From Nemertoderma westbladi (lineage: Eukaryota; Animalia; Xenacoelomorpha), in the NCBI GenBank assembly GCA_032718475.1, contig JAUCBJ010005949.1, positions 49,638 to 113,637 on the forward strand: DNA of 64,000 bases, read 5' to 3'. The translations under genes and the position numbers were made by a program. The notes beneath the pieces were generated by a model that saw only the letters and a list, made by a program, of their open reading frames with translations, was not told the DNA's origin and did no database searches. Of this stretch, positions 9,170-63,661 are shown one piece after another. Every line of letters starts with the position of its first letter. Positions within the stretch are counted from its first letter, which is position 1.

Positions 9170-9439
9170 TGCTTCTGTATTGCAGTAGGCAATAAAGCTG
9201 AAGTACCGGCAACCGGTACCCAGTAGGCCTGACTACCTAACCACCCGGACCGGTACCTACAGCAGTACAGGTGCAGCAGTATTATTCGATTTTGATAATT
9301 ATATACCGGTAGGCCTTAATAATTAATCAGGGAGGGCCCGCCCTGGTTTTTTATTGAGTTTTTACTTATTTCTGTCAAATTTTATTTATTTGTAGGCCAG
9401 TATTGAACAGAAGGCGTGTAAACCTCATCAGATTGTACA

Positions 9440-18591: not shown

Positions 18592-18669
18592 CTGTTTAGA
18601 GTATCTTTATGTTTTAGAAACTGTGATTTTTATATTTTATAGACTGAAAATCCCATTTTCTGGGAGCGG

Positions 18670-38891: not shown

Positions 38892-41410
38892 CCTCTGACA
38901 TTGAAGGCATGTTTCTGCAAGTTAAAGCATTACCTCGAGATCGAGATAGCCTACAATTTCTGTGGTGTCCTGAAGGAAACCTCAACCGAGAACCGGTGGA
39001 GTACTGGATGACCATCCAGGCTTTCGGGATCATATCTAGCCCCTCGAACGCTTGTTCGGTAGTGCGCACCACTGCCGACGATAATAGAGACGCCTTCTCT
39101 AAAGCGGTTATCGACAACATCAAATGAGATATTTACATAGATGACAACCTTAAGTCCCTCCCCTCGGTGGAAGAAGCAATTGAAGTTGCCAAGGAAACGG
39201 TAGAGTGCTTACAACGAGGTGGATTTCGCCTAACCAAATTAACTAGTAACTCCCATGAGTTTCTGGAATCGATCCCAGTGGAAGACCGATGTGTTAAAGA
39301 TCTTGACCTCATTAAGGAAGATCTCCCAGAAACCAAAACCCTTGGACTGAAATGGGACATGGAGAGAGACATTTTATTCTTCCAACTGAAACAACACCAA
39401 AATCCTGTTCGAACTAAACGGATTTGCCTGAGTAATCTGAGCACTTATTTCGACCCATTGGGATTCATTAGTCCCGTAATCCTAGTCGCTCGGAGTATGG
39501 TGCAATAAATGTGGCTCGAAAACCACTCTTGGGATGATCCACTCCAGGGAGAACTGCTAAAGAAGTGGATGAAGTGGGAGGATTCTTTACCAGCCATCGA
39601 GAACTTTAAGATTTCCCGCTCGTATTTCGGTCACGTTCTCGCCACGTATTTCTATCAACTCATGTTTTTGGAGACGCCAGCGATATCGGAATAGGTATAG
39701 TAGCCTACCTGAGGGTTGAAATTCCCGATGGAATTAAAGCCGCCTCAAAGGCCCTAATAAACAACAAACTGCGAGTCCCCAGAGCGGAGTTAAAAGAGGC
39801 ACTATATGCTACAGCCATCGGCCGGAATGTAACTGAACAGATCGAATATCCACTAGAGAAAACCATTTATTGGACTGACGCATTACTCATTCTGGAATAT
39901 ATCACTAATGAAGCCTGTCAGTTCAGGTTCTTTGTTACCAACCGAGTAGCTATTATACTCAGTCGCACTAATATAGATCAATGGAGACATTGCCCCAGGA
40001 ATGGCCCCCTCATCTCACCACGGCTGAGATTAGACAAGCCAAGTGAGCGGAAAAAGTCAAACCAAAAAACAGGATTGGGAAAATCTAAATTGTTCAAGCC
40101 AGCGATTGATCTGTCTGTGCTACATACCGCCAGTGACGCCACTGTGGATCCTAATCAACCAAAATCCATGGACGTTACCCGAGCCCCAAACAAATCAGTT
40201 GTTGAAATAAGGGAAAGAGATTGGAAGTCTTGAACACCAGATGTATCAAAGGTACTCTTTCCCCTCATCCAGAGAGTAATTGTGTATTTAAATCGATGTT
40301 TCCATCATCATTATTCCAGGATGAAGAACGCTAATGACTCCACCTCTGAAGTAGCTGAAAGGGTCCACACTACTAGAGACCTTCCCACTTATCGGCTACC
40401 TAATAAGTTTCTAACTGATAAAATCAGTTACCAAGAACATAACGATACCAACAAGCAAATGCTGAGACTCCTGCAATGTTATGAGAATTCCGAAAAATAT
40501 TTCCTGTTGTTGAGAAATCCACAGATGCGCTTAAGGGATTCTTTTTCTAGAACAATGATAGATGGGTTAATACATGTCGGAGGGAGATTAACCAATGCTC
40601 CATTGTCCTTTGACACTAAGTTTCCCATACTAATTAGAAATCTTGAAATACAAATCAAGATGATTGTAGATGTTCACAGTAAGCTTTACCATACTGGTAG
40701 AGAACGAGTTCTTAGCAAAATTCGAACTCGCTATTATTTCCATAAGCCCTGTAGAGCACTAAACCAAGTTCTTAGGAACTGTATACCATGTAGGAAAGCA
40801 TTTAGTAGGCCTTTAACACAGCGAGAGGCAGAATTACCTAGGGAAAGAGTAAGCTGTTATGAACCACCCTTTACCAATACCTGTGTGGATTTATTTGGCC
40901 CTATTGAAGTGTATCACGCTAGACTATAGTCAAGCGATGGTGCATCATCTTTGTTTGTATGACTTGTAGAGCGAACCATCTTGATATGGTGAACAATCTA
41001 TCTACCAACAGCTTCAAACTGAGTTTACGCCGACAAATCGCTCGTTTTGGGACTAGCAATACTATGAGATCTGACAAGGTACTAATTTCATCGTAGCCAA
41101 CAACGAGATCAAAGCTTACGTAAACAATTGGAACCTAAGACAGGTGGACGACAGCTGAGAGTAACAGCATCTAGCTGGACCTTCAACGCCGCCGACGCCC
41201 CTTGGTGTGGAGGAAGTTGGGAGAGACGTAGCATGAAGACCGCATTTCACTTCATAGTGCCGTGCCATGCTTATCTCACTGACGAACTTTTGCGGACGTT
41301 AATGAAGGAAATAGCCGACTATCTCAACGAGAGACCCCTTATGCAAGTCTCATCGAGTCCAGACTCCCTAGAAGCGCTAACACCCACGCATTTCCTACCA
41401 AAGAAACCAA
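38892..41410 (+). pseudogene. pol: RT-RNase H-integrase remnant of element D
   Basis: ORF pieces 38909..41484 align with B/C pol (MFLQVKAL, YFDPLGFISP, GGRLTNAPL, VDLFGP, LNERPL, ALTP.HFL) with stops and frameshifts; ends abruptly near a G run. Confidence 0.9.
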
Positions 41411-42625: not shown

Positions 42626-42904
42626 ATATCACAGTGAAAAAATACATGTATAATGATTATTATAAATAATCGTATAGGAAGTAGCTTCCTTTATAAATTA
42701 ATAATGAAAATTTATTATTTAACCACTTCGATTGTGGGAGCACCAAAAGAAATACGTGTCCTAATTAATCTACTGTACTGAAAGGCGGGTTAACTAACAG
42801 GAGGCAACAGGGCTGTCTGAAAAAGGAACAGAAGTTAAATTAGATGAATTAAATTAAAATAAAACAGGAAAAGGAAAAACTATCTGCCGGTGTTCGATGA
42901 GGAG

Positions 42905-45800
42905 GGTAGCGACAGAACGGGGTCCATGGTTCCGGGGATGGAGGCCATCCATCAGACAGGGCGGGGTGCATGGTTCCGGGGATGGAGGCCATCAGTCAGG
43001 GTGGGGTCCATGGTTCCGGGGATAGAGGCAGTAAGACAGGGCGGGGTCCATGGTTCCGAGGATGGAGGCCATCAGTCAGGGTGGGGTCCATGGTTCCGGG
43101 GATGGAGGCCATCAGTCAGGGCGGGGTCCATGGTTCCGGAGATGGAGGCTGTAAAAGCTTTTGCGGATATAACCAGTCATTTTCTCCGCAATATACTGTG
43201 TGGGTGTTTTAGCGGAAATAACAAGCCATTTTCCGCCGCAATGCGCCTAATACTCTAAAAGTCTGGAACTCAGATGACGAAATCTGTCAGCTGATTTACT
43301 GTAAACGTGGAACACCTCTTTGTTCAGCTCGCTCAGCCAATCAGAGCGATTTTCATTTTATCTTGTACAGAGGCCTACGGAAAACCGCGCAATGCATTAC
43401 GGTTTTTGTTTACCTTTTCTGAGCCTCGGAACATCGGCTTAGCAATTCTTCTGTACTTCTGTAGAAGTTTCAGACTTTGACCTACAGTAAACATCAGAAA
43501 CATCAGATGGCTTTGATTACAAGAACGTAAAACTATTAACGCAATTCAACTACGCAACACACCGCATCACACCGCAAGTCAGCATTGCTGCACATGGAAC
43601 ACTGCATCAGTAACACATACTGACTGTTCACCGCATTATTTTGCTTCTGTTATTAATTGGTGTTATGTTAATGTATATTGCTGATATATTTGGAGAATAC
43701 CGATGAATAATCATAAAACCCCCAATCTTCTTGATTACTGAAGGTTAGAGGAACAGGTTTACCGGTAGCAACTGCGACTTACATTATAGTGGTTTTTGTG
43801 TGAATTAAATGCTATTTCATGATCCCTACATGTGTCAGTTGCGATCCTCTTTATATATGATCAAATTCAGTGACGGTCGGCAGATCAGTGCGCAGTAGTG
43901 TGAAGTAGTGTGAAGTCGTGTGAAGTAGTGTGAAGGTTAATAAAGCATCTCCTAAAGAATGCGCTTTTACGAAACTCAGTAGCCATCCAGTTGTGATTAG
44001 TATAAGTCATAACTCTGTTTATACTTAAAGCGCCACATCCTAAAGGAACTGTTAATATTTCCCGAAAGTAAATATATTGTCAGAGATTATATAGTAACGA
44101 TCAATCGAATAATACAGTAGGTCTACACTGCAATCACTATCAAAGCATCCGAATCCAGTCTCCCTTAACTGTGGGTGAATGGTCGCGCACAGGTTGGCTT
44201 CGGCTGATGTAACTTCAGTACATTAAATAATTGATATACAAAAGACAATTAAAATTGGCAGGTTAAACTGCTAAAGGTCTAAAAGCGCGAACAGAGGCAG
44301 TCAGACAGGGCGGGGTCCATGGTTCCGGGGATGGAGGCCATCAGACAGGGCCGGGTCCATGGTTCTGGGGATGGAGGCCATCAGACAGGGCGGGGTCCAT
44401 GGTTCCGGGGATGGAGGCCATCAGACAGGGCGGGGTCCATGGTTCCGGGGATGGAGGCCATCAGACAGGGCGGGGTACATGGTTCCGGGGATGGAGGCCA
44501 TCAGACAGGGCGGGGTCCATGGTTCCGGGGATGGAGGCAGTAAGAAAGGGCGGGGTACATGGTTCCGGGGATGGAGGCCATCAGACAGGGCGGGGTCCAT
44601 GGTTCCAGGGATGGAGGCAGTAAGACAGGGCGGGGTACATGGTTCCGGGGATGGAGGCCATCAGACAGGGCAGGGTCCATGGTTCCGGGGATGGAGGCCA
44701 TCAGTCATCGCGGGTTACATAGTTCCGGGGATGGAGGCCATCAGACAGGGCGGGGTCCATGGTTCCGAGGATGGAGGCAGTAAGACAGGGCGGGGTCCAT
44801 GGTTCCGGGGATGGAGGCCATCAGACAGGGCAGGGTCCATGGTTCTGGGGATGGAGGCAGTCAGACAGGGCGGGGTCCATGATTCCGGGGATGCAGGCAG
44901 TCAGACAGGGCGGGGTCCATGGTTCTGGGGATGGAGTCAGTGAGACAGGGCGGGGTCCATGGTTCCGGGGATGGAGGCCGTCAGACAGGGCGGTGTCCAT
45001 GGTTCCGGGGATGGAGGCAGTAAGACAGGGCGGGGTCCATGGTTCCAGGGATGGAGGCCATCAGACAGGGCGGGGTCCATGGTTCTGGGGATGGAGGCAG
45101 TCAGACAGGATGGGGTCCATGATTCCGGAGATGCAGGCAGTCAGACAGGGGGGGTCCATGGTTCTGGGGATGGAGGCAGTGAGACAGGTCGGGGTCCATG
45201 GTTCCAGGGATGGAGGCAGTCACAGAACGGGGTCCATGGTTCCGGGGATGGAGGCAGTAATAAAGGACGGGGTCCATGGTTCCGGGGATCGAGGCAGTAA
45301 GAAAGGACGAGGTCCATGGTTCCGAGGATAGAGGCAGCAAGATAGGACGGGGTCCATGGTTCCAGGGATGGAGGCAGTCACAGAACGGGGTCCATGGTTC
45401 CGGGGATCGAGGCAGTAAGAAAGGGTGGGTTCCATGGTTCAGAGGATAGAGGCAGTCAGTCAGGGCGGGGTCCATGGTTCCGGGGATAGAGGCCATCAGA
45501 CAGGGCGCGGGCAGGGTCCATAGTTCCGAGGATAGAGGCAGTCAGACAGGGCGGGGCCCATGGTTCCAGGGTTGGAGGCTGTCAGACAGGGCGGGGTCTA
45601 TGTTTCCGGAGATGGAGGCCGTCAGACAGGGTGGGGTCTATGTTTCCTGGGATGGAAGCTGTCAGACAGGGCGGGGTCTATGTTTCCGGGGATGGAGGCA
45701 GTCAGACAGGGCGGGGTCCATGGTTCCGAGGATAGCGGCAGTCAAACAGGGCGAGCCCATTGTTCCGCGGGCAGAGGCAGTCAGACAGGGTGTGGTCCAT
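42905..45800. repeat. 40-bp G-rich minisatellite, interrupted by a solo LTR
   Basis: Unit GTCCATGGTTCCGGGGATGGAGGCCATCAGACAGGGCGGG, about 6 copies before and over 35 copies after the LTR. Confidence 0.95.
43150..44293 (+). mobile_element. Solo LTR (1144 bp) of a fourth subfamily
   Basis: TGTAAAAGCT...AAAGCGCGAACA, TSD GAGGC on both sides (43145-43149, 44294-44298), no internal sequence. Confidence 0.95.
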
Positions 45801-45825
45801 GCCATCCTGTTACGAACGGTATGAG

Positions 45826-46548
45826 TTACAGACTGTGGTCGGGCTCCTCTACAGTAACGGTTTCCATTTCGCTGTAGGGTTCTATGATTCTTTCGCGCTT
45901 TACCATGAACGGTTTCCAGCCATCTGAACCATCTCCTGTGGAATACATTATACGTTCCATCACAAGACACGGACCTAAATGTTTCTCCTTTAGCAGTTCG
46001 TTGCAACAACCTCTTCCACCATCTGGATAATACTTATGTTGTTTAGCCTTGCAGTCACCGATGTGTAGCAAAATCTTGTCACCACTGTTACGAGATTCCT
46101 TGTGGAACAATGCCAGGGAATCACATGGTAAAGTATTTGGGGGCTGCCCCACAGGGTATGTAGGTTCAACAATCACAATGTTGTTTGTGTTATCAACACC
46201 CATACATCTCATGCGATCAGTTTCGAATGTCAGTAGCGAATAAAATCGTTTTGACAAAGAACCCCTTATTCTATGTTCATATATGTATTGAGTAATTATC
46301 GTTTCCGTTGGAGGACTACGACGCCCCTCCTTCTCATAACTTTGGAAGGTTATATCGTTATTGTCTTTGTCGCACTCCAAGTATTGTGCGTTATAACCTT
46401 TGTTATCAATTTTCGTCTCACTTTTAAATTTACTTTCGTTATAAATTCTTATTTTATCTCCAGTTCTTCCTGTCCATTTGCATTCATCATCTTTCTCTTC
46501 ACAGACACCCGGACAACAACATAGGCATTTCTTCAGAAATTTCGCCAT
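45826..46548 (-). CDS. Probable host protein, 240 aa, unknown function; N-terminal Cys cluster; possible beta-trefoil (IL-1-like) fold
   Basis: ATG-started non-repetitive ORF with globular composition and a conserved paralog at the window start. The fold suggestion rests on weak motif resemblance only. Confidence 0.6.
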   Translation of the reverse strand: MAKFLKKCLCCCPGVCEEKDDECKWTGRTGDKIRIYNESKFKSETKIDNKGYNAQYLECDKDNNDITFQSYEKEGRRSPPTETIITQYIYEHRIRGSLSKRFYSLLTFETDRMRCMGVDNTNNIVIVEPTYPVGQPPNTLPCDSLALFHKESRNSGDKILLHIGDCKAKQHKYYPDGGRGCCNELLKEKHLGPCLVMERIMYSTGDGSDGWKPFMVKRERIIEPYSEMETVTVEEPDHSL

Positions 46549-47041
46549 TATTAATAAATTATTTTTATCACCACAATACAGTCACAATGTTGTGGTACAG
46601 TAGAATTGATTACAAATTGGAACACTGTATTAATTATTATTGATGTAACTTTTAAAATATTATTTTTGACAGATTTTAGGTTAGGGAATCCTGTATTTAT
46701 AAAGGCGAGATTGGTATTGGGATTCTTTTGGGATTGTTTACCACCCGTATTATTGATATTGAATGGGACTTTACCGTAATGGTGCCTATATGTACTCTTT
46801 GTGTGGGTGGTTAAGATAAGATAAGCTTAGTTAGTTATTTATAGTTCTATTTTTATACATTACCTCAGTACCTGCAATAAACACACTGACGTCCTAATGA
46901 ATTAATAATCTCCCTATTCTTTCCACCATAAACTATAAATGATATTATACTTCACAAAAGCTAAGCCTATATTCTAAAAGAAAATATATGACATTGTAAA
47001 AGCTTTTTCGGACAAAATAAGTCATTTTGCGCAATGCGCTT
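46445..47041. repeat. Segmental duplication copy 2, ending in the first 47 bp of a D-type LTR (46995-47041)
   Basis: Matches 1-847; the D-type LTR is cut off where the element C LTR begins. Confidence 0.9.
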
Positions 47042-48190
47042 TGTAAAGGCTTTTGCGTAATTAGCCGGTTATTTTCCCCGTAAAGTACTCTGTAGTTGGT
47101 TTAACAGGCATAAAAGGCCGTGTCCTTACTGTACTGTTGTTTTAGAGGACATAAAAGCCATTTCTTCTGTATGTGTACTTTAGCGGACATGATTAGCAAT
47201 TTTATGACGCAATGCGCCAAATCCTCTGGAAACAGTGTAGCTACCATGACGACGGCTAACAGCTGATGCTGTATACGTGGAGCTTTTTCTTTGTTCTCTG
47301 TTCCTTCTTTGTTCGGTCGACCAATCAGAGCGGTTTTTTGCCTCTGTGTTGGAGATTGTATATAGAAACTCGTGAAGTTGAGTCAGTATGTGATTTGTCC
47401 ACAGCCTACAACACCGGCTTTGGAACCTCCGTGTTTCAGTCTTTAGCCCAACATTAGTAGGCTTAATTATAGAACGTATATCCGTTATCTAACCAAATCG
47501 ATCATATCAATTTATACCTTAACGTTTTACTGCTTTTACTGTCGGTTATTCATTATATTTGTTGATGGAATATTATATTTGGAATACTGATCAATAATCA
47601 GACACCCCAATCTTCTTGATATACTAAAGGTTAGAGAGACCGGTTACATATAACGATTGCGACTTACATTAAGTGGTTTGAAGTGAATCTAATGCTATTT
47701 TATAGGCCCTACATGTATTGTCTGTTGTTCTCCTTATATGTGACTAAAATTAGTGAAGGTCGGCAGATTAGTGTGCAGCATTGTGCAGTATTGTGTATGA
47801 TCGTGATTGATAACAAAGCATCTCCTAAAGAATGCGCCATATACGCTAATCTATAGCCATCCCGTTGTGTCTAGTTTAAGTCATAACTCTGTTTATATAT
47901 TTAAAGCGCCACGTCCTAAAGGAACTGTTAATATTTCCCGAAAGTGAATAATATTTGTCAGAGATTATATATATTATGATCAGTCGAATAATACAGTAGG
48001 CCTACCCCGCAATACGGTTAGGCTTCCGAATCCAGTCTCCCGGGTATATCCAGCGGGTGAATGATCGCGCATAGACTGGCTTCGGCTAATGTAGTGTATC
48101 AAATACTTGTCATAGGCTAAAGACGATCTATTATCTAGAAGACATCCCAATTTGGCAGGTTAAACTGCTAAAGGTTTGAAAGCGCGAACA
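47042..48190 (+). repeat. 5' LTR of element C (1149 bp)
   Basis: TGTAAAGGC...GCGCGAACA; highly similar to the B LTRs. Confidence 0.92.
47321..47387 (+). promoter_or_regulatory. Putative LTR Pol II core promoter (CCAAT, TATA, TCAGT initiator)
   Basis: CCAATCAGAGCG at 47321 is conserved in all four LTR types (971, 8215, 43337); TATATAGAAA at 47359; TCAGT at 47383. Confidence 0.55.
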
Positions 48191-48202
48191 ATAACGGATA
48201 TA
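48191..48202 (+). promoter_or_regulatory. Non-tRNA primer-binding site of C (ATAACGGATATA), complementary to LTR 47477-47488
   Basis: Exact 12-nt reverse complement of TATATCCGTTAT. Confidence 0.8.
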
Positions 48203-50491
48203 GCTTCTGTATTGCAGTAGGCAATAAAGCTGAAGTACTGGTTAACCGGTACCTAGTAGGCCTGACTACCTAACCACCCGGACCGGTACCTACAGCAGTA
48301 CAGGTACAGCAGTATTATTCGATTGTGAAATTGTATACCGGTAGGCTGTTTAAGAGATTAGGGACTGTACACCCCTTGTTTCTTTTGGAGCTTACTTATT
48401 TCTGTCAGTTTTATTTATTTGTAGGCCAGTATTGAGCAGAAGGCGTGTAAGCCTGCTCAGATTGTACAGACAATTTGTAGGCTGGACTGTTGTCTGACTG
48501 TTGTTAAGTCTGAAGAGACTGTAGTGTGTGTAGAGCATATGTCCGAAAAAGTACTAGTTAGGAAAGTAGGGGCTGCCAGTGCTGTGAGGTGAACCCCCTC
48601 GAAAGAATAAGTCGTACTACTCGGTTAGAACGCATACTAACTAACCATTTCGGAGTCTGCATATACTGTAGTGTATTTAGGCTTGATAGTAGTCTGCCAG
48701 CGTTTGGTCTGTACTTTGTTTGTGTAGTTTGTACGGGTAGCGTAATATTTCTTACTTAGATAATTTGTAGGCTGGATTTTGTCTGGCTGTTGTTAGGTCT
48801 TGAGAGATTTCGGTGTGTGTAGAGTGTATGTCCGATAAAGTGCCAGTTGGGAACGTAGGGGCTTCCAGAGCTGTGAGGTAAACCCCCTCGAAAGAATAAG
48901 TCGTACTACTGGGTTAGAACGCATACTAACTAACCATTTCGGAGTCTGCATATACCGTAGTTTGTTTGGGCTTGATAGTAGTCTGTCAGTATTTGGTCTG
49001 CATTTTGTTTGAGTAGTCTACGCGTAGCGTAATATTTATTATTCAGAGTTTATGCGATTATTCGCAACATTCATTCCCCAAGTTTATTCCTACAGTAATT
49101 GTGCTTGTTATATATACCGTTATAGTTAAACTAACCCCGGTACTACATCAGGGCTGCTTGGCATAGGTAAAGACTGGTGATTTTGTGCCCCGGTCACTCC
49201 AGCAGATACCGTGGTTCTTTTAGCTGTTCAAGTATTTTTAACTACTGATTATTTGTTGTATAAGTACTCGTACCTAATTTAGGGTTTAGTGTACAGTGCT
49301 TTCCGAAGGTGATTAGTGTGTAGGCAGTATATTTGTGTTGTAAAGTGGTTAATAGGCACGTTGGTTCTGGTAGACCGCGGTAATTAACTTCTAGGTAGGA
49401 ACACTCCGTGATACATAACGTAGTACTTATAGCGCCACGGCTATAAGTCGTCAGACGGTGGTATTTTTCTATCTGGACAATGCAGTATATTTACTACTAC
49501 TTATTATTTTCAAATACCGTAGTAACCTGTCCGTTGTAATAACCAGATATTCTAACCCTTTGTTAGGCTGGTTAGTAGACTTCTTGTAAAATTACCCTAA
49601 AAATTCGTACTTGTAAATTTTTGTGTTTATTTAGAGATTGTAATCTCAACCCGAATTGTACGTAATTTGTAGTATTAAGTAACTTAGGTAAATTAGAATT
49701 ATTTGTTCTAGTGTCCAACAAGTAGCACTCCACTGAGAGCGCACAGCTTCTGTGTAGTGACTCCCCCCAGAAATAATAACATTTATTTCAAATATTGAAA
49801 AAACCCACTTTAACGGGTATATATATTATAAATCAACTCAAACGATTTATAAATAGTAGGCCTGCCATACATCAATTAGGTCAAAATATCAGTTGGACTA
49901 CTGCTTAAATAACGGTAATAAAGTAAGTAAAGTAACCAAGTAACCCCTAAAAAATTCAGAAATTCAATTATTTAAAATAATTGACATACCGGTATTTACC
50001 ATAGGTTTATTATATTTATTTCTATAAACTTTAGGCTGAAATTATACCGGTATTCTGTAATTAATTCTAGTCTGTAATTATACTTATATATATACATTAT
50101 AAGTGTAAGCTGTATACCGGTATTCATGATAGGCCTATTATATATTTAAAAATTTAGGCTGAAATTATACCGGTATTCTGTAATTAATTCTAGTTAATAA
50201 TTATACTTATATATACTATAGGTATAAGCTGCATACCGGTATTCACGATAGGCCTATTATATATTTATATATTTGTGCTGGAATTATATACCGGTATTCT
50301 GTGACAAACCTAGTCTGTAATAATACTTATATATATACTATAAGCATACCGGTATTCTAATATATTATATATATATCACGCTACACTGAGTAGCAGTATC
50401 GGTAATTAATTACTAGGCTAACAGTGATACTGAATTACTAGACTTGCTTAAACTGTAATATAGCAGTAGGCATTCAACTGTACAAACCAAC

Positions 50492-53400
50492 ATGTCTGAC
50501 ACAAAGCAAAACCTGTCAGACAGTCTCCTAGATACTCCAGGTGAGTCTCCAGGTGCAAGGAACGGCTCAGTGGAAAGCCCAGCTGGATCAGCGCTCAACC
50601 CATGGAGAATCAACAGATGCTACTTTTTCCCAAGTGGAAAGTGAAGTGACGGCAGAGAAACCGCATAAGAGGGATGCCATTGACATCTATCTGTCAGACT
50701 ATCAACGTTTTTTAGGTGATGAAGAGTTGAGGAGAAGGCTAGATGGACTTAGCCCTAATAGTGAAGGAACCCAGCATGTGTTGGACGCCATCGATGTGGA
50801 TATGAGAGCTGCGAACCAAGCTAGATTTGATGAACGCCTCCGCATCACTAGAGTCCAAGAAGAACAAGTGAAGAAAAAACGTATAGAAGACAGAAAGACA
50901 GCGGCAGTGGCAGCGGCAGAAGCACAAAGAAAAGCGGCAGTGGCAGCGGCAGAGGCAGAGGCAGAAGCGGAAAGAAAAGCGGCAGAGGCAGAGGCAGAAG
51001 CCGAAAGAAAAGTGGCAGCGGCAGCGGCCGAAGCGGAAAGAAAGGCGGCTGTGACAGCGGCAGAGGCAGTAGCAGAAGCAGAACGGAGAGCTTCCGAAGA
51101 AACCACCCAATTAGAATTGGAAAACATTCAGGAGAATCAAGACTGCATAAATAAACAGTTAACAGCTAGTAATATGCAGATGATGAGTCGATCTACTCCC
51201 AAAAGACAGGGATATACATCATCTGAGGAAGGCGATACCACCGATACTGAAGGCGGAGGAAATAGATCTCGTCTAAGCAGACGTAGAAGAACATCCCACC
51301 GTCAGAAATTGCCTGATTTGCCCCCAGCTGTTAGAAGGCAACTAAATAACACAAACTTAGGTAGTACAGAACCCACAGACCAAATAATTAAAATAGAAAG
51401 ACTCCCTACTATAATAGATGAGCCTGAAATAATTAGGCCTGTTCCCAAAGCCACCCTTTCGGTGATAGAGACACCTGTACTCCCTGAACCTACCTCTAAA
51501 TTCCCTCTGCACAGCACTAAGCTATCTGTGCCCCACAGAACCACCCTTGAAAATATTCATGTCCTGGACTCAGAGCGAAATATTCATGATTTGTCGCCCG
51601 TTGTCCCTCGTCCGCCCGCTACAACGTTGGCGCCTCCCGCTTCGGCGGTCGAGTGGGTAGATGAGGGACGACGGGAGATGGGTCTCCTGCTCGGACAGCT
51701 GAGGGAACAACATTCTCGCTCCTCTCAGCAGGCCCAGGAGATGGAGGGATCTGTGCAGCAGTTAAAGGGAACGATTAGAGAGAGTAGGTTAGAGTTGCAA
51801 GAAGTGCAGCAAAGTATCGCGTTAGAACGCGATAAATTAGTAAATACACAAAAGGGTATACCACCAACCCCGGTAACAATGTGTCAACCTGTTAGGTCTG
51901 AAGTATTTCATGCGCAAGGTGTGGAGCCTACACGCATATATACTGCTAGCAAAGTAGAAACTCCTATAGTGAACCCTATTAAGGGTAATTATAGACCTGT
52001 TGATAGTGATATTCCCTATAGACCTGATCATAATCCGAGAAATTTATATACCGATAACTCGATATTAAATAACACGATGGCCCAAGAAAGTTTTACGCGT
52101 CAAATGGCTAGAACCGAAGCCCGTCAAGCGGTAAAGGTGGGAGAGATAGTCAAGTTCAATGGAGATGAGATGAAATGGTTACCTTTTAATGAATATTATA
52201 AAGATAACATACAGAACTCTGTACTATCTAATGGGGAGAAACTTAGATTCCTCATCGAGTGCTTGGAAGGATCTCCCAAGTTAATGGCATTAAAGTTTAT
52301 TGGACATCCAGACGGATTAAGACAAGTTTGGGATACACTAAACATCAGGTATGGTAATAGGAATAACATAGCTAAATATTTGTATGCAAAATTAGTAGCG
52401 CCCCGAAAGTTCATTAGCAGCGGGATAATAGAGTTTTCCGATGAGATTCAAGAGATCTGTAGACAATTAGATTGGTTAGGTAAGTCTCATGAATATCAGA
52501 GTTCTATGGTTATTGGAGCCGTGGCTTCTACTTTACCGAAGGGTGGAGTAGGTACACGCTGGGATAAGAAAGTGTTATATATGATGGAACAACAACGACG
52601 AGACCCTACCATGGCTGATCTCATGTCATTCTTAGATGGAGAAGTGAAATTACAGCTCCTAAAACAGTCCAGAGAGAAGACACCGGAAAACAAGGTAAGT
52701 GAGAAACCCGTTTCTAGGAGAAAGGTAACACCTGTGTGTTATACAGACGACGGCGAAAGCCAGACTTCTCAAGGCGAGGATAGCGGGAAAGACACTGAAA
52801 GATCTTATTATGTCAATAAAATGCCTAAAGAACAGGTAAGTAAATTCAAGTCTCGAAACAATGACAGGAGAGAACAGGTAAGAAAAACTCCTCCTACGTC
52901 TCCTAAGAGAATTCAGGTGAGAAAGCCCGAAGAAAGAACGAATGTGCACAATGTTATTCAAAATAAGGTAAGTAACATCAAACCGAAATGTGCGCTATGT
53001 GACGGGACCCACCGTTTGAATATGTGTGATGAATTCCTGAAGAAATCATTAACGGAGAGACGGGAAGTCATGTGGGATAAGCGGTTGTGTTATAATTGCC
53101 TCAGACAAGGACACCAACGGCGAACCTGTTACTCCGACACAAGGTGTGCAAAGTGCGGTGCGAAACATCATATCTTGTTGCACACTGAATTTGAGCGAAA
53201 CAGCCAGAGTCAGGTAAGTGATTCCGAACTACATGTCCAATTCAGTGATGTGAACGACACTGACCAAAGTTCTGAGATGGAAGGATTCTATACAGATGAA
53301 TTCTCCGACGAAGGTGAATCCTGTTACATGATAAATACCGCAGTGTATCGAGCACTTACGTATGAAAAGGACACAGACAGCGACCTCACCCTAACTACTT

Positions 53401-56400
53401 CTGATCGACAACCATCTTGGAAAGCGCCACCTTCCAATGTAGGAATCCGAGAATTTCCTGTAGTACAGGTAAGGGTCCACGGACCTAAAAGGAGTTATGT
53501 AGTGAACGCCCTCCTTGACTCCGGTAGTACAGGAACATTCATCGACAAAGAACTAGCCGAAGACATCTTTGCTGGACAACCCAAGTTCCGAACTAAGCTA
53601 AACATGTCAGGAATTATGCAGGTTTGGAAATCTACAGTAATCGCGGATTATTATGTAGGTGCGTTGTCCACCCCCCAGGATGAACTAGGAGAACATAGTA
53701 TAAGGTCAGTAAAAATGGTGGCGATAAAGAACTTCGCTACCACCCAAGTGGAACCTTATAACTGGGATGAGGACGATTTCAGCCAGCAGCTGGAAATACC
53801 TAGATTCAACACCGATTACCCTGGAGTGCAAATACTCATCGGTCAAAACGCGCATGAAGCGCTCGAGACATTGGAGAAACGGCCTGCTCAACCGCAACCA
53901 CTACAAGCTTATGCGGGAAGAACTAGAGTGGGTTGGTACTTTACGGGCCCTTCCCATAGAACTCTCCTGGAAAGATTACCGAAAGACCAGGTATGTCAAG
54001 TGAGAGAATGGGAAGTCGAGGGCAGTGAGTTAGATGATCTAACTGAGGGAACACCATACTCCTCAGATAATGACGATGTCCACCAACTTTTCGATGAGGA
54101 GAATACCATCGATCTCCTTAAGGAAAACGAGACTTGGCAAAACCAAGTGAACTTATGTCAGCTCCTTCTTCCATCAGAACGAGACGGCTATAACGACGAA
54201 CTTAATGACGTCATTGAACGTTATAATGCCAAGACTCGGGATGAACACGCCGTACGATTCTTTACTCAAGAGGCTGTAGAGCCCAATTCCTACGATAAGG
54301 CCCTATCGGAAGAGGAAGAAAGAGCCAAGCAGATCCAGGAGACAACTACACGTTTTCTTAAAGATCAAGGTAGATATGAGATCGGTCTACCTTTCCGAAA
54401 GCGAGAACCAAAGTTCATAAACAACAGACCCTTGGCGGAGAAAAGAATTGCTCAACTACATCGACGCCTTACGGCAAATTCTTCAGCTAAAGAAATGTAT
54501 CAAACGCAGTTGGAGAAATTTATTAGCAAGGGATATGCGGAGCTAGTACCGGAAGAAACACCTATAACTGAGAGAACGTATTATTTAACTCACCATTACG
54601 TTCCCAAACCCGGTAAACCCCATGAGGTACGAGTGGTGTTTGACGGCTCCGCCCTCTATATGGGCCAATCCCTTAATTCTGAATTGTTACCCGGACCCAA
54701 CTTACTCCAATCCTTGTTGGGAATACTCTTAAGATTAAGACAATATTCAATTGCTTTCGCCTCAGATATAGAAGGCATGTTCTTACAAGTCAAGGCGCTG
54801 GATAGGGATCGAGACAGCCTACGATTTCTGTGGTGGCCTGAAGGAGACCTCAACCAGAAACCAGTGGAGTACTGGATGACCATCCAGGCTTTTGGGATAA
54901 TCTCAAGCCCTTCAAACGCCTGTTCCGTGGTGCGCACCACTGCGGATGACAACCGAGACGCCTTCTCTAAAGAGGTGATTGACAACATCAAGCGGGATAT
55001 ATACATGGACGACAATCTAAAGTCCCTTCCATCAGTCGAAGAAGCCATCGATGTCGCTAAAGGAATGGTGGAGTGCTTAAAAAGAGGTGGATTTCGATTA
55101 ACTAAATTCACCAGCAACTCCCGTGAGTTTCTGGAGTCGATCCCGGTAGAAGATCGAGGAGCAAAAGACCTGGATCTAATAAAAGATGATCTCCCAGAAA
55201 CTGAGACCCTTGGTTTGAAATGGGACACCGAAAGAGATATCCTGTTTTTCCAACTAAAACAGCGAGATAATCCAGTTCGGACTAAACGGATTTGTTTAAG
55301 TATCCTGAGCACTTATTTCGATCCATTGGGATTTATTAGCCCAGTTATATTGATTGCTCGGAGTTTAGTACAACAAATGTGGCTTGAAAACCACTCATGG
55401 GACGATCCACTTAAGGGAGAATTATTAAAGAAGTGGATGAAATGGGAAGATTCTCTACCAGCCATCGAGAACTTTATAATTTCCCGTTCATATTTTGGTC
55501 ATGTTCTCCCTACGTATTCCTATCAACTCCATGTGTTTGGAGACGCCAGCGATATGGGAATAGGTATAGTAGCCTACCTAAGGGTGGAAACTCCGGACGG
55601 AATCAAAGTCGCCTTGGTTACCTCTAAGGCATTGATAAACAACAAGTTGAAAGTTCCTCGAGCGGAGTTAAAGGCGGCTCTATACGCTACAGCCATCGGT
55701 CGGAATGTAACAGAACAGATCGACTATCCACTGGAGAAAACTGTCTATTGGACCGACGCTTTACTCGTGTTGGAGTATATAACCAATGAAGTCTGTCAGT
55801 TCAGCGTCTTCGTTACCAACAGAGTAGCCATTATACTCAGTCGCACAACGATGGATCAATGGAGACATTGCCCCGGAACGATTAACCCAGCAGACATTGC
55901 TTCCAGAGGAGCAACTCCACAAGAACTGGTAGATACTCCAGACTGGTTAGGTGGACCCGACTTCCTCAACAAAGAAGAAGAAGAATGGCCTCCTCATCTT
56001 ACTACCACAGAGATTAGACAAGCCAAGGGAGCGGAGAAAGTCAAACCTAAAACTAAAAGCGAGTAAATCAAAGTTATTCAAACCTATGGTAGATCTGTCT
56101 GTACTACATACTTCCAGAGACGACGCTTTGGATCAGAAACCCACAGCCACAAATAAACTTGTTGTGGAAATCCGTGAGAAGGATTGGAAATCTGGAATAC
56201 CAGACGTCTCGCAAGGACTCTCACCTCTTCTGCAAAGAGCGATACATCACTACAGTTCCTGGAATCGGCTCTGTAAGGCCGTTACATATTTAAAGATATG
56301 TTTTCACCATCACTACTCCGGGATGAAGGCCAAAGGTGATACCGCTCCAATAACATCAGTGCAGGTCCATGTTATTAAAGATCTTCCCAAATATAAGATA

Positions 56401-57888
56401 TCCGACAGGTTTCTGAAGGAGAAGATCAGTTATCAGGAGCATGAAGAAACCAACAAGCAGATGCTGAGACTCCTGCAATGCTATGAGGATTCCGATAAGT
56501 ATTTCCTGTTGTTGAGAAATCCACAGATGCGCTTAAGGGATTGTTTCTCTAGCACAATGATAGATGGGTTGATACGTGTTGGAGGAAGATTAACGAATGC
56601 TCCATTATCCTTTGACACTAAGTTTCCCATACTCATTAGAAATCTTGAAATACAAGTCAAGATGATTGTAGACGTTCACAGCAAACTTTATCATGCTGGT
56701 AGGGAACGAGTTCTCAGCGAAATTCGAACTCGCTATTATTTTTATAAACCCCATAGAGCTCTGAACCAAGTTCTTAGGAACTGCATACCCTGTAAGAAAG
56801 CATTCAGTAGGCCTTTAACACAGCGAGAGGCAGAATTACCTAGGGAACGAGTAAGCTTCTATGAACCACCCTTTACTAATACCGGTGTGGATTTATTTGG
56901 CCCTATTGAAGTATATCGTGCTAGGACTATAGTCAAGATATGGTGTGTCATCTTTGTTTGTATGACTTGTAGAGCTATCCATCTCGACATGGTGAACGAT
57001 TTATCTACCAACAGCTTTCTATTAAGCTTACGACGACAGATCGCTCGCTTTGGCACTAGTAACACGATGAGATCTGATAAGGGAACAAACTTCATTGGTG
57101 CCAACAATGAAATCAAAGCTTATGTCAAAGATTGGAACCAAAGACAGGTGGACGATCAGCTACGAGTAACAGCGTCTAGCTGGACCTTCAACGCCGCCGA
57201 CGCCCCTTGGTGGGGAGGAAGTTGGGAGAGATTAATAAGAAGTGTGAAAACCGCATTTCACTTTATAGTGCCATGCCGCGCGTATCTCACCGACGAACTT
57301 TTGCGGACGTTAATGGAGGAAATCGCCGCCTATCTCAATGAGAGACCGCTTATGCCAGTCTCATCGAGTCCCGATTCCCTGGAAGCGCTAACACCCGCGC
57401 ATTTCCTACTGAAGAAACCTGTAGCCATGCTCCCACAATCGGAAATCACAGACGGAGACGAATACTGCCGGCAAACTTGGCAACTCATGCAGTTGTTATC
57501 CCGTCGTTTCGCTGACCATTTCGAAAAACATTATCTGCCCACGCTACAACTTCAAACTAAGTGGTTTGCGCAGCAAGAAAACGTCAGCGCTGGAGACATG
57601 GTTCTTATTGTGGATGTAGATCTTCCACGTAAGCGGTGGCAGACAGGTCGTATCATCGAGACTCACATCTCGGATGATGGTTTGGTGCGATCGGTAGAAC
57701 TCGTCGTCATGCGACGTAACTTCAAGAAACCGGGAATTGTCTTCGAGACACAGCAGCTCAATCGCCCAGTTGGTCGCTTATGTTTACTGGAAAGAGACAG
57801 AGAACTCTCCGGAAACTATGGGAGGCAAGATACTCTTCCCATGACCACCTCCCTAATCCAACAAACATCTAGGGACTCCCCAACTTAA
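50492..57888 (+). pseudogene. gag-pol: gag-pol of element C, with one frameshift near 56055 and a first ATG (50492) out of frame with the long ORF
   Basis: ORFs 50541..56066 and 55951..57888 together match the B polyprotein; one extra base in AAACTAAAAGCGAG relative to B. Confidence 0.9.
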
Positions 57889-59517: not shown

Positions 59518-62500
59518 ATGACTGAGTTGATAGAAGATGATCTTAGTATCAGGGAGCGATATACTCTACCTTTACAAGCGTTTGTCGATAGCTTGATACG
59601 CGGCGACGCTGGTCCAACTACTACGGAGGATGATGGTCGTTATATCGAACCGCCAATGTCCCCGGAGCAACTTACGCGTGAATTGGATTATAGAAAGTTC
59701 ACCGCTCGCTATACGCATCGTAATGGTACGTATATGGACTTCTTAACTACCGGCCATCCTATCGATTTATACGATACGGACGATGTAGATACCAAAAGGG
59801 AAATGGTTTTATTTAAATATCATACCCAGCGGAGTTGGAACGATAAACCGAGAATAGAACACGAGAACTCTATTCGAAACAGACTCGAAAGGGAAGACGT
59901 TGAAGAGCCAGATAAACGTAGTGACTTCAACGATTATCTGGAATTCCTGAGAGAGACATATCTCAATATTGCCAGCCAACAAAATCTCGAAACTAGATAT
60001 CCTCAAGGTATACATCATGATCCTATGATAGAACTCAAACGACTCTATTTCACTATGATGTATCTTACCGCCGATCGACCGCTACCTGTCGTCCCAGATA
60101 GCTTCAAACAGATGGAGGAATATTGTAAAACTGGAGAACGATCACCCGTGTTTCCCCTGCAGGATGTGCGTCTTTGGTATTACTGCGATGAATGCCCTAG
60201 ACCCAATCAGCAAACGGAAAGACATAAACATCCGCGGAGACGTTGCGCTAAACAGAGTTTTACACGATATACTTATGGGAGTTTCGAGCGAAACCTATTC
60301 GACGTATCACCTATGGTCGCTCGGCTCAAACGATCCTTGAATAAACCAATGATCAGAGTTCCGGAATACTCGGTCAGACCTCCTCATTCCTCAGTTAGAC
60401 CTCAGACTCTTGATCCTAATAGTATCACGGATCCTCCCGAACTGTACTCACTGTTCAAAGATCTAGTGTTACCCGAACAGTTGATCGGTGGCACTCCGGT
60501 AGTAGGCTCACTAGATATTCGCCAACCCTACCTAGCTGGATTGGGACGCGGTCATCTAATATCGCCGTTTAACCCATACAACCGTCCCGGCTTCACCTCC
60601 ATCCAACCCGTTACGGAAGTCGAAGAGAGCGTCGTACGAAACACGTTAGACGCTATTCGGCAGAAAATCGGAAAAGGAACTTACGATTGTTTGGAGAAAC
60701 GTAAATTGCAACAACAAGTCCAAGCGGTGAAGGAATTAGCTTTACCCCAGTTGAATAGAGAAATACAAAATCTCGAGGAGGACATCGAACGTGGACGAAC
60801 CTACTCTTTACAAGAGTTCCTAGATGAGCGTCTACAACAACAAGCGGAGGAAAATCAGCTCGAGGAGAGACATATAGAACTAGATGAGAGAGAAGAAGCA
60901 GCTTTAGCTCAACACGAAGCTCAAATCCTTATGACGGATCTCTACTCTAAAACCATCCTTCATCCCTCGATGGTTCCCCATTTCGGAGACAAACTCTTTG
61001 CGACGGTACAACCCCAACCGGTTGATATTAACCTAAGATCTCGAGATCTTATCGCTGACGCTCCCATGTTGCAACGTCCGCCCATCCAAGCCGCTCGTGT
61101 CGATGGTATACTCGTTGAACCTCCGGACAATAGAGCGGATCTTGTCCGTCGCATGGTACACGATGTAAACATACGCGCTAGACCTTTACCGGACTCGTTT
61201 TATGGGATCAAAGATCACCCTTATTACGTCAATCTAACACAATATTACATGGTAAAACCGGAAGATCCTATACATAGTCTGAGGTTTCTACCACTCATAA
61301 ATCCTCTCGATCTTGTCGAACTCGAACAACTGCAGAAACATCTGGATCAGTTAGTTAAAATAAACTCATTTCGAAAACCATATAATGTTTCCAGAATAGA
61401 GAAAGAAACAATACCTCCGTATAATCTTGATGGATTCATCAAAACTCGATTAGTACACTGGAATCTTGACGTGTTATTCGAGGAGGAAAGAATACAACGA
61501 TATGGAGATGTGGAAACATATACCACACAATATTTAAAGTATAGAGACCTACCTAATGCTAGCGAATGCGCTACCTTGTCGCATCCTGTGGGAATGACCC
61601 TCGAAAACGCCACTAAAGAGTGGAACGAAACTCTTAACATTATCGAGATGTATGGAGTTGTCACTTACGACAACGAAGGTAGCGTTCCGGTTGGAGAACT
61701 GGGAACTATGCGGATGATACACATACGAGGACTCGCTGGTTCTACCCACGTATTTACTCGAGCGTGTTCCGATGTGATTGATTATTCTTTTGAGACTCTT
61801 ACTGAGACACAAAAGAAACTCCGACATGGACAATTCGAACTCGCGCAGCGTTATGTCGCCGACACCGAGCGCAAACCGGCCATGGGTATCGATGGATCGA
61901 TGTTACCCCAGCCCGTGCTCGAGATGTTGTTTAACGAAAGAATCCTTAAAATCGGCTCAGCTGTTTATGGAGACCTACAAAACGACTTTCGGAATATGGA
62001 GAACATTCCATACCCCTTCGTTGATACTCAGCTGATTGCTCCCTGGGCAGAAGGCCGAGGTTTCTTCCGCACTATGTATGCAAATACACCCAGCGGCATT
62101 ACTAAAGTACAACGAACCTCCATCGGACATCTTGCCTTTCAAGAATACGGATGGAATTTCAAGGTTGGAAATCCTATAAATTACCAACAAGTATATGGAG
62201 ATCATTATTCTCGTTTATACTTTGATGGACCATTGACCGCACCTGGCGCCGTGTATAGCTTTATGAGTGTTCCACTTCGTCCCTCCTTAGCTATCGATCT
62301 TTGAAAACGCAGCACTTGCCGGTTGGCTCGCCGATGTGTGCAGTCGTACCATACGCGCCCATCCCTTAATACTTGGAACCAAACTCGCCAAGTTAGATGA
62401 ACACAATAAATTCATCCGCTTCGAATGTTTCAGGCGCTTTCTGACTCCGTTCCGTAACGTTGATAGTCAGTTCAAGGACCGCGCTCTGACCAAACTCAGC

Positions 62501-63661
62501 CTAAGAGACTCAGCTGCGGAGAAGCTAAATAGCGCGGGATTTGTTCTCTTTCAGGACGTTTGTATACAGAACTTACATTCATCTGTTATACAAAGACCCC
62601 GAATACCCACAGGTTATTCTGTCGTGGAAGTTCAGACAGTGGGTCCGCTTGCGGAGATAGCCGCACCTACCTCAGCTATGCAATTGGAAGACGAACCAAT
62701 ATGCTTAGAATCTGAACCGATCCAGCCTACAGCGCCCCGGAGCAGCGATAACGATTACGTCTTGGAGTGGTATCAAGGTCCACAATGTCTCACCGCATAC
62801 GATTATCGACACGCCAACTACGTTTCTCGAAAACGTTGTCGATTATGCGCATCGAGAGACCATTTCACCCCTATGGACTCAGACGTACCCTGCTCCTATT
62901 TCCACGAACAGCCGATGATGGAGATCTATTGTGCGTATTGCAGACTTAATAACTCGCATATTTTTGCAGTCTGCCCCCAATTTATGACCCAATGTCACCA
63001 CTGTCAACTTAAAGGACATGCCAGTTATAATTGCCCCTTTAACCGTGATTTAGAAAGCGTAGATGAGATGATTACCCTGCGCTACATCCGAGCTTGGGAA
63101 GCGAACGCGGATTTACATTGTGAGTCCCGCCATCGCTACTACCCTGGACGCTCTTATGAGGGAGTTTACGCGTTCCATCCTTATTTATTCGCGTCTGTGG
63201 AACAAAAAACACGCACACCGAGTTACGAACTAATGAAGCGTGTTGGTGAGTGTATTTCCACCAAATTTGTTCGAAAATATCTTAGGAATGTCAATCCTAA
63301 CGATATTACTTCATATCATTTGATCAATTTCATCCGTCAAGACCCTGAGTATGGCGATTTATTTATCAACTCGCACCCTGAGTTACAGGAAGTATCTCGA
63401 CGGCCCTACGAATATCGAGCCCGAGAACGCGAGCTGGAAAGAACCATTAAACCAAGGAAGTTTCTCACCACTCACGGTCCACCTACCGCCATTGTCCAGA
63501 CGACCCGTCAAGGACCCGTAGGAGCTGCTGTCCTAAGACGCGCCCTAAAGGCCGTTAGACCTCGCTCCACTGAAGTTGATATCGATCAACCAGGTACCTC
63601 GACCGGCGGATATACCGATCGTAATCCTAAACCTTCTGATGCAATTGTATTGCACCCTTAG
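59518..63661 (+). pseudogene. ORF2 of element C: DEDDy exonuclease-like plus zinc-knuckle protein, with one frameshift near 62297 and a truncated C-terminus
   Basis: ORFs 59518..62304 and 62336..63661; motifs GVVTYDNEG, LPQPVLEMLFNERILKIGSAVYGDL, FVDTQLIA, SIGHLAFQEYG; CHHCQLKGHASYNC knuckle. Confidence 0.85.

What the first reader, a model, noticed from the sequence alone, without database searches (positions are those of the whole stretch)
47580..48190. Large conserved, co-varying RNA structure in the 3' half of the LTR
Four otherwise divergent LTR types keep the same blocks and pairings. (1) GCAT(C)TC-CTAAA-GAATGC hairpin (47818-47835). (2) Near-invariant AAAGCGCCACGTCCTAAAGGAACTGTTAATATT (from 47903). 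(3) ATAACTCTG/CAGAGATTAT (47883/47959). (4) CCAGTCT/AGACTGG (48032/48073), which is CCAATCT/GGATTGG in A. (5) A UUCG-loop hairpin GGC-TTCG-GCT that is GGT-TTCG-ACT in A. (6) GGCAG-GTTAAA-CTGCT (48154-48169), which is GGTGG...CTGCC in A and AGCAG...CTGTT in D. This much constraint is unusual for an LTR. It lies between the putative primer and the PBS, so it could be a scaffold, a packaging signal or a catalytic RNA that releases the primer.
Basis: partly seen in the sequence, partly recalled or inferred. Interest (0 to 1): 0.75.

Follow-up and report, generated by a model that had tools for sequence, protein, structure and literature searches.

The report
Primer-clamping RNA in self-priming retrotransposon
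The terminal repeat of this BEL/Pao jumping gene holds a short stretch complementary to the site where DNA copying starts, and a second, co-varying set of sequences complementary to that same stretch, so its RNA likely makes its own primer and likely folds into a clamp that holds the primer back until it is cut free.

Summary
The window is a nest of BEL/Pao LTR retrotransposons with five LTR types. The six listed motifs are present, but the four helices counted carry 1 double-sided change in 27 pairs, no better than shuffles. The co-variation lies in long-range helices that bind the element's self-primer (47477-47488, the exact complement of the PBS). Helices Y, Z and X carry 9 double-sided changes in 22 pairs. 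The invariant hairpin 47818-47835 branches off opposite an invariant bulged C, giving a three-way junction. This clamp excludes primer:PBS pairing, and the two folds are close in predicted energy. Best reading: a primer-sequestering switch beside a retrovirus-like PBS domain, with the primer cut probably by the element's RNase H as in Tf1 (inferred). No known ribozyme family matched. A new hydrolytic ribozyme is not excluded (about 0.1). The scan had already noted BEL/Pao self-priming in other genomes; my look-ups found no note or paper on the clamp.

The parts
47042..48190 (+). 5' LTR of BEL/Pao element B (1149 nt, TG...CA); its terminal AAAGC is the inverted repeat of GCTTT near the 5' end (likely integrase att sites, DNA-level)
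47319..47387 (+). CCAAT box (all types), TATA-like box 47359 and initiator-like TCAGT 47383-87; predicted RNA start about 47385
   Evidence: sequence; start inferred, not measured
47439..47448 (+). helix U 5' strand (pairs 48115-48124)
   Evidence: 2, 1, 0, 17, 12 of 300 shuffles in B, C, D, E, A; the partner found differs in register in C and E
47451..47457 (+). helix X 5' strand (pairs 48086-48092); second docking arm of the primer-bearing segment
   Evidence: 35 of 35 cells paired, 2 double-sided changes
47460..47473 (+). helix W 5' strand (pairs 47850-47858; type D is longer on both sides)
47470..47488 (+). self-primer: 47477-47488 is the exact complement of the PBS; 47470-74 extends the duplex; invariant bulged C at 47482
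47489..47489 (+). invariant C just 3' of the predicted primer end; pairs with invariant G47809
   Evidence: cut site inferred
47490..47555 (+). length-variable arm pairing with 47751-47808
   Evidence: 73, 11, 1, 0, 8 of 200 shuffles in B, C, D, E, A
47627..47635 (+). donor-like AG|GTNAG, one per LTR type at this position; role unexplained
47642..47745 (+). apical hairpin domain
   Evidence: z -2.0, -1.4, -1.6, +0.3, -3.2
47809..47815 (+). helix Y anti-primer strand (pairs 47483-47489)
   Evidence: pair probability 0.63-0.99 in 5 of 5 types; 34 of 35 cells, 3 double-sided changes
47839..47846 (+). helix Z anti-primer strand (pairs 47474-47481)
   Evidence: 37 of 40 cells, 4 double-sided changes
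47864..47887 (+). hairpin GTTGTG/CATAAC
47903..47945 (+). near-invariant core; weak hairpin 47911-47928 with an AC bulge and YAAA loop; role unexplained
47986..48014 (+). 5' strands of helix T (47986-94 with 48312-20) and helix V (48000-14 with 48210-22), which close a PBS domain with the leader
   Evidence: V: 2, 0, 9, 1 of 500 shuffles in B, C, D, A
   Evidence: 4 one-sided changes, all G-U compatible on this strand
48191..48209 (+). PBS directly after the LTR's CA; no TGG, complementary to the self-primer
50541..57888 (+). BEL/Pao gag-pol of element B (two overlapping frames; one frame in sister element C, 27420-34700 minus)

Best explanation
The 3' half of this BEL/Pao LTR carries co-varying complements of the element's own predicted primer, and on the RNA it likely acts as a primer clamp that would switch the primer between a held state and a PBS-paired state. 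Shown in sequence: 47477-47488 is the complement of the PBS in every type with a PBS, and the same bases are complementary, with changes on both sides, to 47809-15 and 47839-46, which flank an invariant hairpin; 47439-57 is complementary to 48086-48124. Predicted: the clamp is the default or near-default fold and cannot coexist with primer:PBS pairing; helices T and V and the terminal hairpin frame the PBS, much as in retroviral leaders. Inferred: a cut at or near 47488/47489, most likely by the element's RNase H as in Tf1, leaves a 3'-OH on a 5' piece of about 100 nt, which moves to the PBS and primes like a tRNA. Also inferred: the clamp stops early priming and keeps the twin primer copy in the 3' LTR inactive, the job that an intron in the primer may do in relatives.
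For: Primer:PBS complement of 11-12 nt with different letters in B/C, D and A, and none of that length after the 3' LTRs or the solo LTR. Folded one by one, 5 of 5 types form helix Y. Two Watson-Crick-only helices with at least 2 double-sided changes were found inside the LTR; 1 of 300 column-block shuffles gave one, 0 gave two. The primer-centred model has 10 of 47 pairs with double-sided changes, 0 of 500 shuffles, and at most 2 when partners are slid. The three-way junction forms in B, C, D and E (2, 0, 0, 2 of 200 shuffles). A nick at +1 shifts the energy toward the PBS state by 4.0, 1.5 and 4.7 kcal/mol in B, C, D. RNase H motifs are intact in element C. In run X1 two loose ends of a further type show an anti-primer start and a PBS start that agree (not shown to be one molecule). 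In relatives, 13 of 15 have a self-complementary PBS and 6 of 12 a second primer complement 44-76 nt before the LTR end.
Against: Only five related types, B and C being 93% alike at fourfold sites; the model was derived from the same sequences. No RNA data show the start, the cut, the poly(A) site or either fold. Folding z-scores are modest: rod domain -0.8, -1.8, -4.2, -2.7, +0.7, with D equally strong on the antisense strand; 120-nt windows are mostly near zero. Copy A1 fails the junction test (119 of 200), and the cross-type binding matrix is not diagonal. Which state wins depends on the stretch folded, and after the nick C and D still favour the clamp. A simple guide scan did not pick helix Y in the window's own types. 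The invariant core and the donor-like site are not explained.
Confidence: 0.6

Rival explanations
1. The structure is a hydrolytic ribozyme: helix Y holds the scissile bond like EBS1/delta of a group II intron, and the invariant core 47903-47945 (CGC, AC bulge, tetraloop) is the active site that leaves a 3'-OH primer.
For: Helix Y spans the predicted cut with an invariant C-G pair at +1. The core is the most conserved part yet barely base-paired. The one change in its hairpin (type E, G-U to A-U) keeps the pair.
Against: No Rfam match. The domain 5 pattern is absent on the sense strand, the lower stem is missing, and there are 4 rather than 5 nt between CGC and bulge (domain 5 geometry recalled). 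Self-priming relatives have loops of only 86-216 nt and share no sequence with the core, so the group does not need a large RNA enzyme.
Confidence: 0.1
2. The primer end is made by trimming: the variable loop is nicked and a 3'-5' exonuclease, possibly the element's extra ORF2, trims back to the duplex edge set by helix Y or the PBS.
For: The C-terminal part of ORF2 resembles PF01612 exonuclease clusters (atlas score 0.92, 25 of 30 hits, family on 11-29% of members). One distant relative has a similar domain plus a knuckle.
Against: No Pfam or PDB match. The first acidic motif looks altered in the pairwise alignment. The fold failed (pLDDT 32.5). None of the 80 relatives' loci encodes an ORF2 match.
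Confidence: 0.1
3. The clamp works only in the 3' LTR. The RNA starts at or near the primer as in Tf1, so helices U, X and W cannot form in the 5' copy, and the clamp only silences the 3' copy.
For: It gives a simple 5'/3' asymmetry. In Tf1 the primer is the first 11 bases (PMC7175516, passage).
Against: CCAAT, TATA-like and initiator-like elements point to about 47385. It needs R to reach 48124, and no poly(A) signal is shared by all types.
Confidence: 0.12
4. The conserved blocks are mainly packaging, dimerisation or protein sites (RNA or DNA), and the primer pairings are a minor fold.
For: Invariance without co-variation in the core and hairpin 1. The terminal 13 nt fit an att site. A donor-like site and a downstream acceptor-like site (about 48424) would make these blocks specific to unspliced RNA (inferred).
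Against: It does not explain 7 double-sided changes in helices Y and Z that follow the primer sequence. It can hold for the core alongside the best explanation.
Confidence: 0.08

Closest known systems
Tf1/Tf2/Tj1 self-priming and the 'pretzel' structure (Tf1/sushi group, Ty3/gypsy)
   Same: No tRNA site; 11-12 nt of LTR sequence complementary to a PBS directly after the LTR's CA; extra duplexes around the PBS. In Tf1, RNase H cuts between bases 11 and 12 (PMC7175516) and a 3-duplex structure is required (PMC10085805); both seen as passages.
   Different: BEL/Pao, not a chromovirus. The primer is predicted about 90 nt inside the RNA, not at its start. The loop is 700-780 nt. No duplex extends primer:PBS on the U5 side. 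A separate, co-varying anti-primer clamp excludes PBS pairing, which the passages read do not describe for Tf1.
Retroviral PBS domain: HIV-1 primer activation signal and U5-leader stem; avian U5-IR stem
   Same: A second primer-template contact beyond the PBS (helix X), a stem between U5 and the leader 3' of the PBS (helix V), a hairpin just 5' of the PBS, and control of initiation by masking (PMC1865047, passages; the avian comparison is recalled and was prompted by note e1-7806709).
   Different: There the primer is a host tRNA and the template signal is masked; here the primer is part of the element's RNA and the primer itself is masked.
Belpaoviridae (BEL/Pao) as described by ICTV
   Same: Pao peptidase, DUF1759, DUF5641 and integrase zinc-binding domains; LTR near the 1.2 kb upper limit.
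   Different: ICTV gives an 18-nt PBS for tRNA-Arg or tRNA-Gly and 4.2-10 kb genomes (PMC8742986, whole text). Here there is no tRNA PBS, element C is 18.6 kb, and there are two extra ORFs that are not env-like by any search made.

Membership tests
Belpaoviridae (BEL/Pao) | Gag-Pol with BEL/Pao-specific domains, integrase after RT/RNase H | tested here: met
   PF05380, PF03564, PF18701, PF17921; nearest proteins share these domains at about 40-44% identity
Belpaoviridae (BEL/Pao) | TG...CA LTRs with target-site duplication | tested here: met
   5-bp duplications flank elements C and D and solo LTR E
Belpaoviridae (BEL/Pao) | PBS complementary to tRNA-Arg or tRNA-Gly (ICTV profile) | tested here: not met
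   no TGG start, and the PBS matches the own LTR; not compared with the host's tRNA set (genome not held)
Tf1/sushi self-priming group | Ty3/gypsy chromovirus proteins | tested here: not met
   BEL/Pao domains, no chromodomain hit
Tf1/sushi self-priming group | PBS next to the LTR complementary to an LTR segment | tested here: met
   12, 12, 11, 11 nt in B, C, D, A
Tf1/sushi self-priming group | primer is the first bases of the RNA | tested here: inconclusive
   promoter motifs suggest a start about 90 nt upstream; no RNA ends available
Tf1/sushi self-priming group | pretzel: two duplexes between PBS-adjacent sequence and LTR sequence 3' of the primer | tested here: inconclusive
   helix V fits one arm loosely; no all-type duplex on the U5 side of the PBS
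Tf1/sushi self-priming group | RNase H-dependent cleavage | not testable with these tools
   motifs intact; activity untested
Group II intron or derived hydrolytic ribozyme | domain 5 with triad, 2-nt bulge and paired lower stem; six-domain fold | tested here: not met
   only a partial look-alike at 47907-47928 (features recalled)
Group I intron or lariat-capping ribozyme | R/S core forming P7; U-G pair at the cut | tested here: not met
   motif scan 0 of 6 copies; the -1 pair is Watson-Crick
Hammerhead ribozyme | CUGANGA and GAAA core in a three-way junction | tested here: not met
   0 of 6 copies on either strand; the junction linkers are AA and GCC
RNase P RNA or tRNA-like element | CR-I motif; cloverleaf | tested here: not met

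The most novel reading that the evidence does not exclude
The LTR encodes a new hydrolytic ribozyme of about 750 nt that grips its own 5' segment with a co-evolving guide, cuts it to leave a 3'-OH and hands it to the PBS: an LTR retrotransposon whose primer is made by RNA catalysis.
Probability: 0.1. Interest if true: 0.92.

Novelty: new variant of a known kind. Interest (0 to 1): 0.62.

Why it matters
A self-priming element must stop its primer from acting too early and must keep the identical copy in the 3' LTR from acting at all. This lineage shows a concrete, base-pair-level answer, a co-evolving RNA clamp, while 10 of 15 relatives examined split the primer with an intron. Together they make the control of self-priming directly testable in a group that ICTV lists as tRNA-primed and whose replication it calls poorly understood. 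The invariant three-way junction and core are sharp targets for asking what cuts the primer.

Tried and rejected
No genome is held for the window, so no deep alignment or R-scape. Rfam: 0 hits for LTR B, 3 chance-level hits for D. ARAGORN found 0 genes. The core pattern gave 2 viral matches that lie inside a phage reading frame and are chance, and 0 metagenome matches. No relative in viral contigs. The 80 metagenome loci share no LTR sequence. No RNA holder was listed; the one run, X1, is contigs only, may be DNA, and cannot show ends or expression; its joints were not at the donor-like site. RNAalifold on 47570-48205 gave 58 pairs with 2 double-sided changes and missed the clamp because the primer was outside the input. 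Group I, group II, RNase P, hammerhead, U6-like and tRNA-mimic readings were considered and dropped (sequence inspection with recalled consensus features). Removal of the anti-primer strand by splicing was dropped: no shared acceptor before the PBS, and no LTR copy in the window shows that deletion. A sense/antisense comparison gave 32 against 12 shared pairs, but 4 against 3 with double-sided changes, so it does not separate the strands by co-variation. The ORF2 fold failed and no fold search was run. The primary Tf1 papers were not held.

Full report
Setting. The window is a nest of LTR retrotransposons whose Gag-Pol carries the BEL/Pao domains PF05380, PF03564, PF18701 and PF17921. The best RT-region relatives are about 40-44% identical; named ones come from echinoderms, amphioxus, mussel, a sea anemone and fish, so the host is an animal that I cannot name. 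Eight LTR copies of five types are present: B (47042-48190), C (pair, 99.2% alike), D (pair, 99.8%), E (solo) and A (two partial copies). C, D and E have 5-bp target duplications. No genome is held.

The observation. All six motifs are where stated. Conservation exceeds the neutral level: B against A is 90% identical at 47892-47941, 0-54% in the U3 bins and 53% at third codon positions. The listed helices hardly co-vary, however. Items 1, 3, 4 and 6 give 1 double-sided change in 27 pairs, reached by 201 of 500 shuffles. Item 3 loses to a hairpin at 47864-47887 in three types and item 5 overlaps two better helices. Local folding is unremarkable: 120-nt windows have z between -3.0 and +2.0 on the sense strand, and a structure conservation index above 0.5 in 3 of 18 windows. 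Rfam has no match.

Self-priming. The bases directly after the 5' LTR are the exact complement of an LTR segment in B and C (12 nt, 47477-47488), D (11 nt) and A (11 nt, primer read in one copy and PBS in the other), with different letters each time. The 3' LTRs and the solo LTR show at most 6. A further 4-5 bp follow a small loop. Because plus-strand synthesis copies the primer into the PBS (established for LTR elements, recalled), this match is the expected footprint of use as a primer. Of 80 metagenome loci, 25 with terminal repeats were inspected and 15 had a usable LTR end; the rest were dropped. Of the 15, 10 match a splice junction, 3 match contiguously and 2 have a TGG site. ICTV lists tRNA-Arg or tRNA-Gly priming for the family (PMC8742986, whole text read). 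Four searches for self-priming listed no paper on it in BEL/Pao; subscription journals and supplements were not seen. The scan itself holds 8 notes of it in other genomes, which I saw after my own.

The clamp. A scan for helices compatible with all types found, besides primer:PBS, helix X (47451-57/48086-92) and helix Y (47484-89/47809-14), all Watson-Crick with 2 double-sided changes each. One of 300 block shuffles gave one such helix, none gave two. Folding each type alone gave helix Y at probability 0.63-0.99 in 5 of 5 types and showed it as part of a rod: U (47439-48/48115-24), X, W (47460-73/47850-58), Z (47474-81/47839-46), Y, then a variable arm pairing with 47751-47808. Anchored by hand, Y pairs in 34 of 35 cells with 3 double-sided changes, Z in 37 of 40 with 4, X in 35 of 35 with 2 (for type A the two strands come from different copies). 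On the automatic alignment the model scores 10 of 47 pairs, 0 of 500 shuffles, and at most 2 when slid; it was derived from these sequences and type E is misaligned by one column in Z. Against: copy A1 does not form the junction (119 of 200), cross-type binding is not cognate-specific, and whole-domain z-scores range from -4.2 to +0.7. G-U-compatible changes in the terminal hairpin favour the sense strand.

The PBS side. Helix V joins 48000-14 to the leader at 48210-22 (2, 0, 9, 1 of 500 shuffles). Helix T joins 47986-94 to 48312-20 without variation (type A has a one-base bulge). With the terminal hairpin they frame the PBS as in retroviral leaders, where a second primer contact is masked to control initiation (PMC1865047, passages). 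Y and Z use the same bases as the PBS, so the states exclude each other. On 47385-48345 forcing primer:PBS costs 3.7 (B) and 15.5 (D) kcal/mol of ensemble energy. On a shorter stretch B favours the PBS state by 3.9 and C and D the clamp by 7.2 and 8.3, and a nick at +1 moves all three toward the PBS state by 1.5-4.7. These differences are near the error of the method.

How it likely works. Shown: the complementarities and their co-variation. Predicted: two near-isoenergetic folds. Inferred: an RNA start near 47385, a cut near 47488/47489, hand-over of the primer to the PBS, and protection of the 3' LTR copy. RNase H is the most likely cutter because it does this in Tf1 (PMC7175516, passage), its motifs are intact, and relatives self-prime with loops of 86-216 nt that share nothing with this core. 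Six of 12 relatives have a short second primer complement in U5, which may be a small form of the clamp; the same crude test missed helix Y in this window. A ribozyme is not excluded, since Y spans the cut and the core is invariant but weakly paired, yet every family test failed. Trimming by the ORF2 exonuclease-like domain is a third option with weak support.

Comparison and verdict. It works like Tf1 self-priming but is not a member of the Tf1/sushi group, and it differs from the pretzel structure described in PMC10085805 (passages). Other papers seen as passages: PMC4600332, PMC6317226, PMC6934838, PMC3601003, PMC554778, PMC3118150; the primary Tf1 papers were not held, and searches were seen as listings only. 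The listing on LTR ribozymes showed only small self-cleaving types. Look-ups in the scan for this sequence or for a primer clamp returned nothing on it. Verdict: a real, primer-centred RNA structure; a new variant of a known kind; interest 0.62.

Noticed in passing
L004, L009, L033, L036, L041, L057, L058, L066, L070, L073: In 10 of 15 metagenome BEL/Pao loci with a resolved 5' LTR end, the PBS matches (10-15 nt) only the junction made by removing a GTAAG...YAG intron of 67-164 nt in the LTR (0-1 of 200 shuffles). 3 have a contiguous self-complement and 2 a TGG-type site. L070/L073 and L036/L057 are near-duplicate families. The scan had noted this pattern in other genomes.
   Followed up: yes
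window 59518-62304 and 62336-63661 (+); copies at 25788-21651 (-): Two extra ORFs after pol: 928 aa with a likely DnaQ-like exonuclease domain at its end and 441 aa with CCHC-like knuckles. No Pfam family at threshold; ORF2 has no PDB or close homologue.
   Followed up: partly
window 47627-47635 and about 48395-48424: A donor-like site once per LTR type, and a pyrimidine-rich acceptor-like site past the PBS; splicing between them would remove the PBS from an mRNA.
   Followed up: partly
window 37733-37640 (-): Element C carries a duplicated PBS-leader segment; its first copy keeps helix V with different letters.
   Followed up: partly
window 47489-48190: No AATAAA or ATTAAA in types B and C and none shared by all types, so the 3' end signal is unknown.
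   Followed up: partly
window 42825-45834: A 40-bp tandem array, with solo LTR E (43150-44293) inserted in it with a 5-bp duplication.
   Followed up: no
window 48468-49047; 9439-10018: About 290-bp tandem repeats in the 2.3-kb leader between PBS and gag.
   Followed up: no
window 46998-47041, 18431-18669, 38892-41408: Elements are nested in or next to each other: B starts inside the first 44 nt of an A-type LTR, and a further pol fragment about 80% identical abuts C.
   Followed up: no
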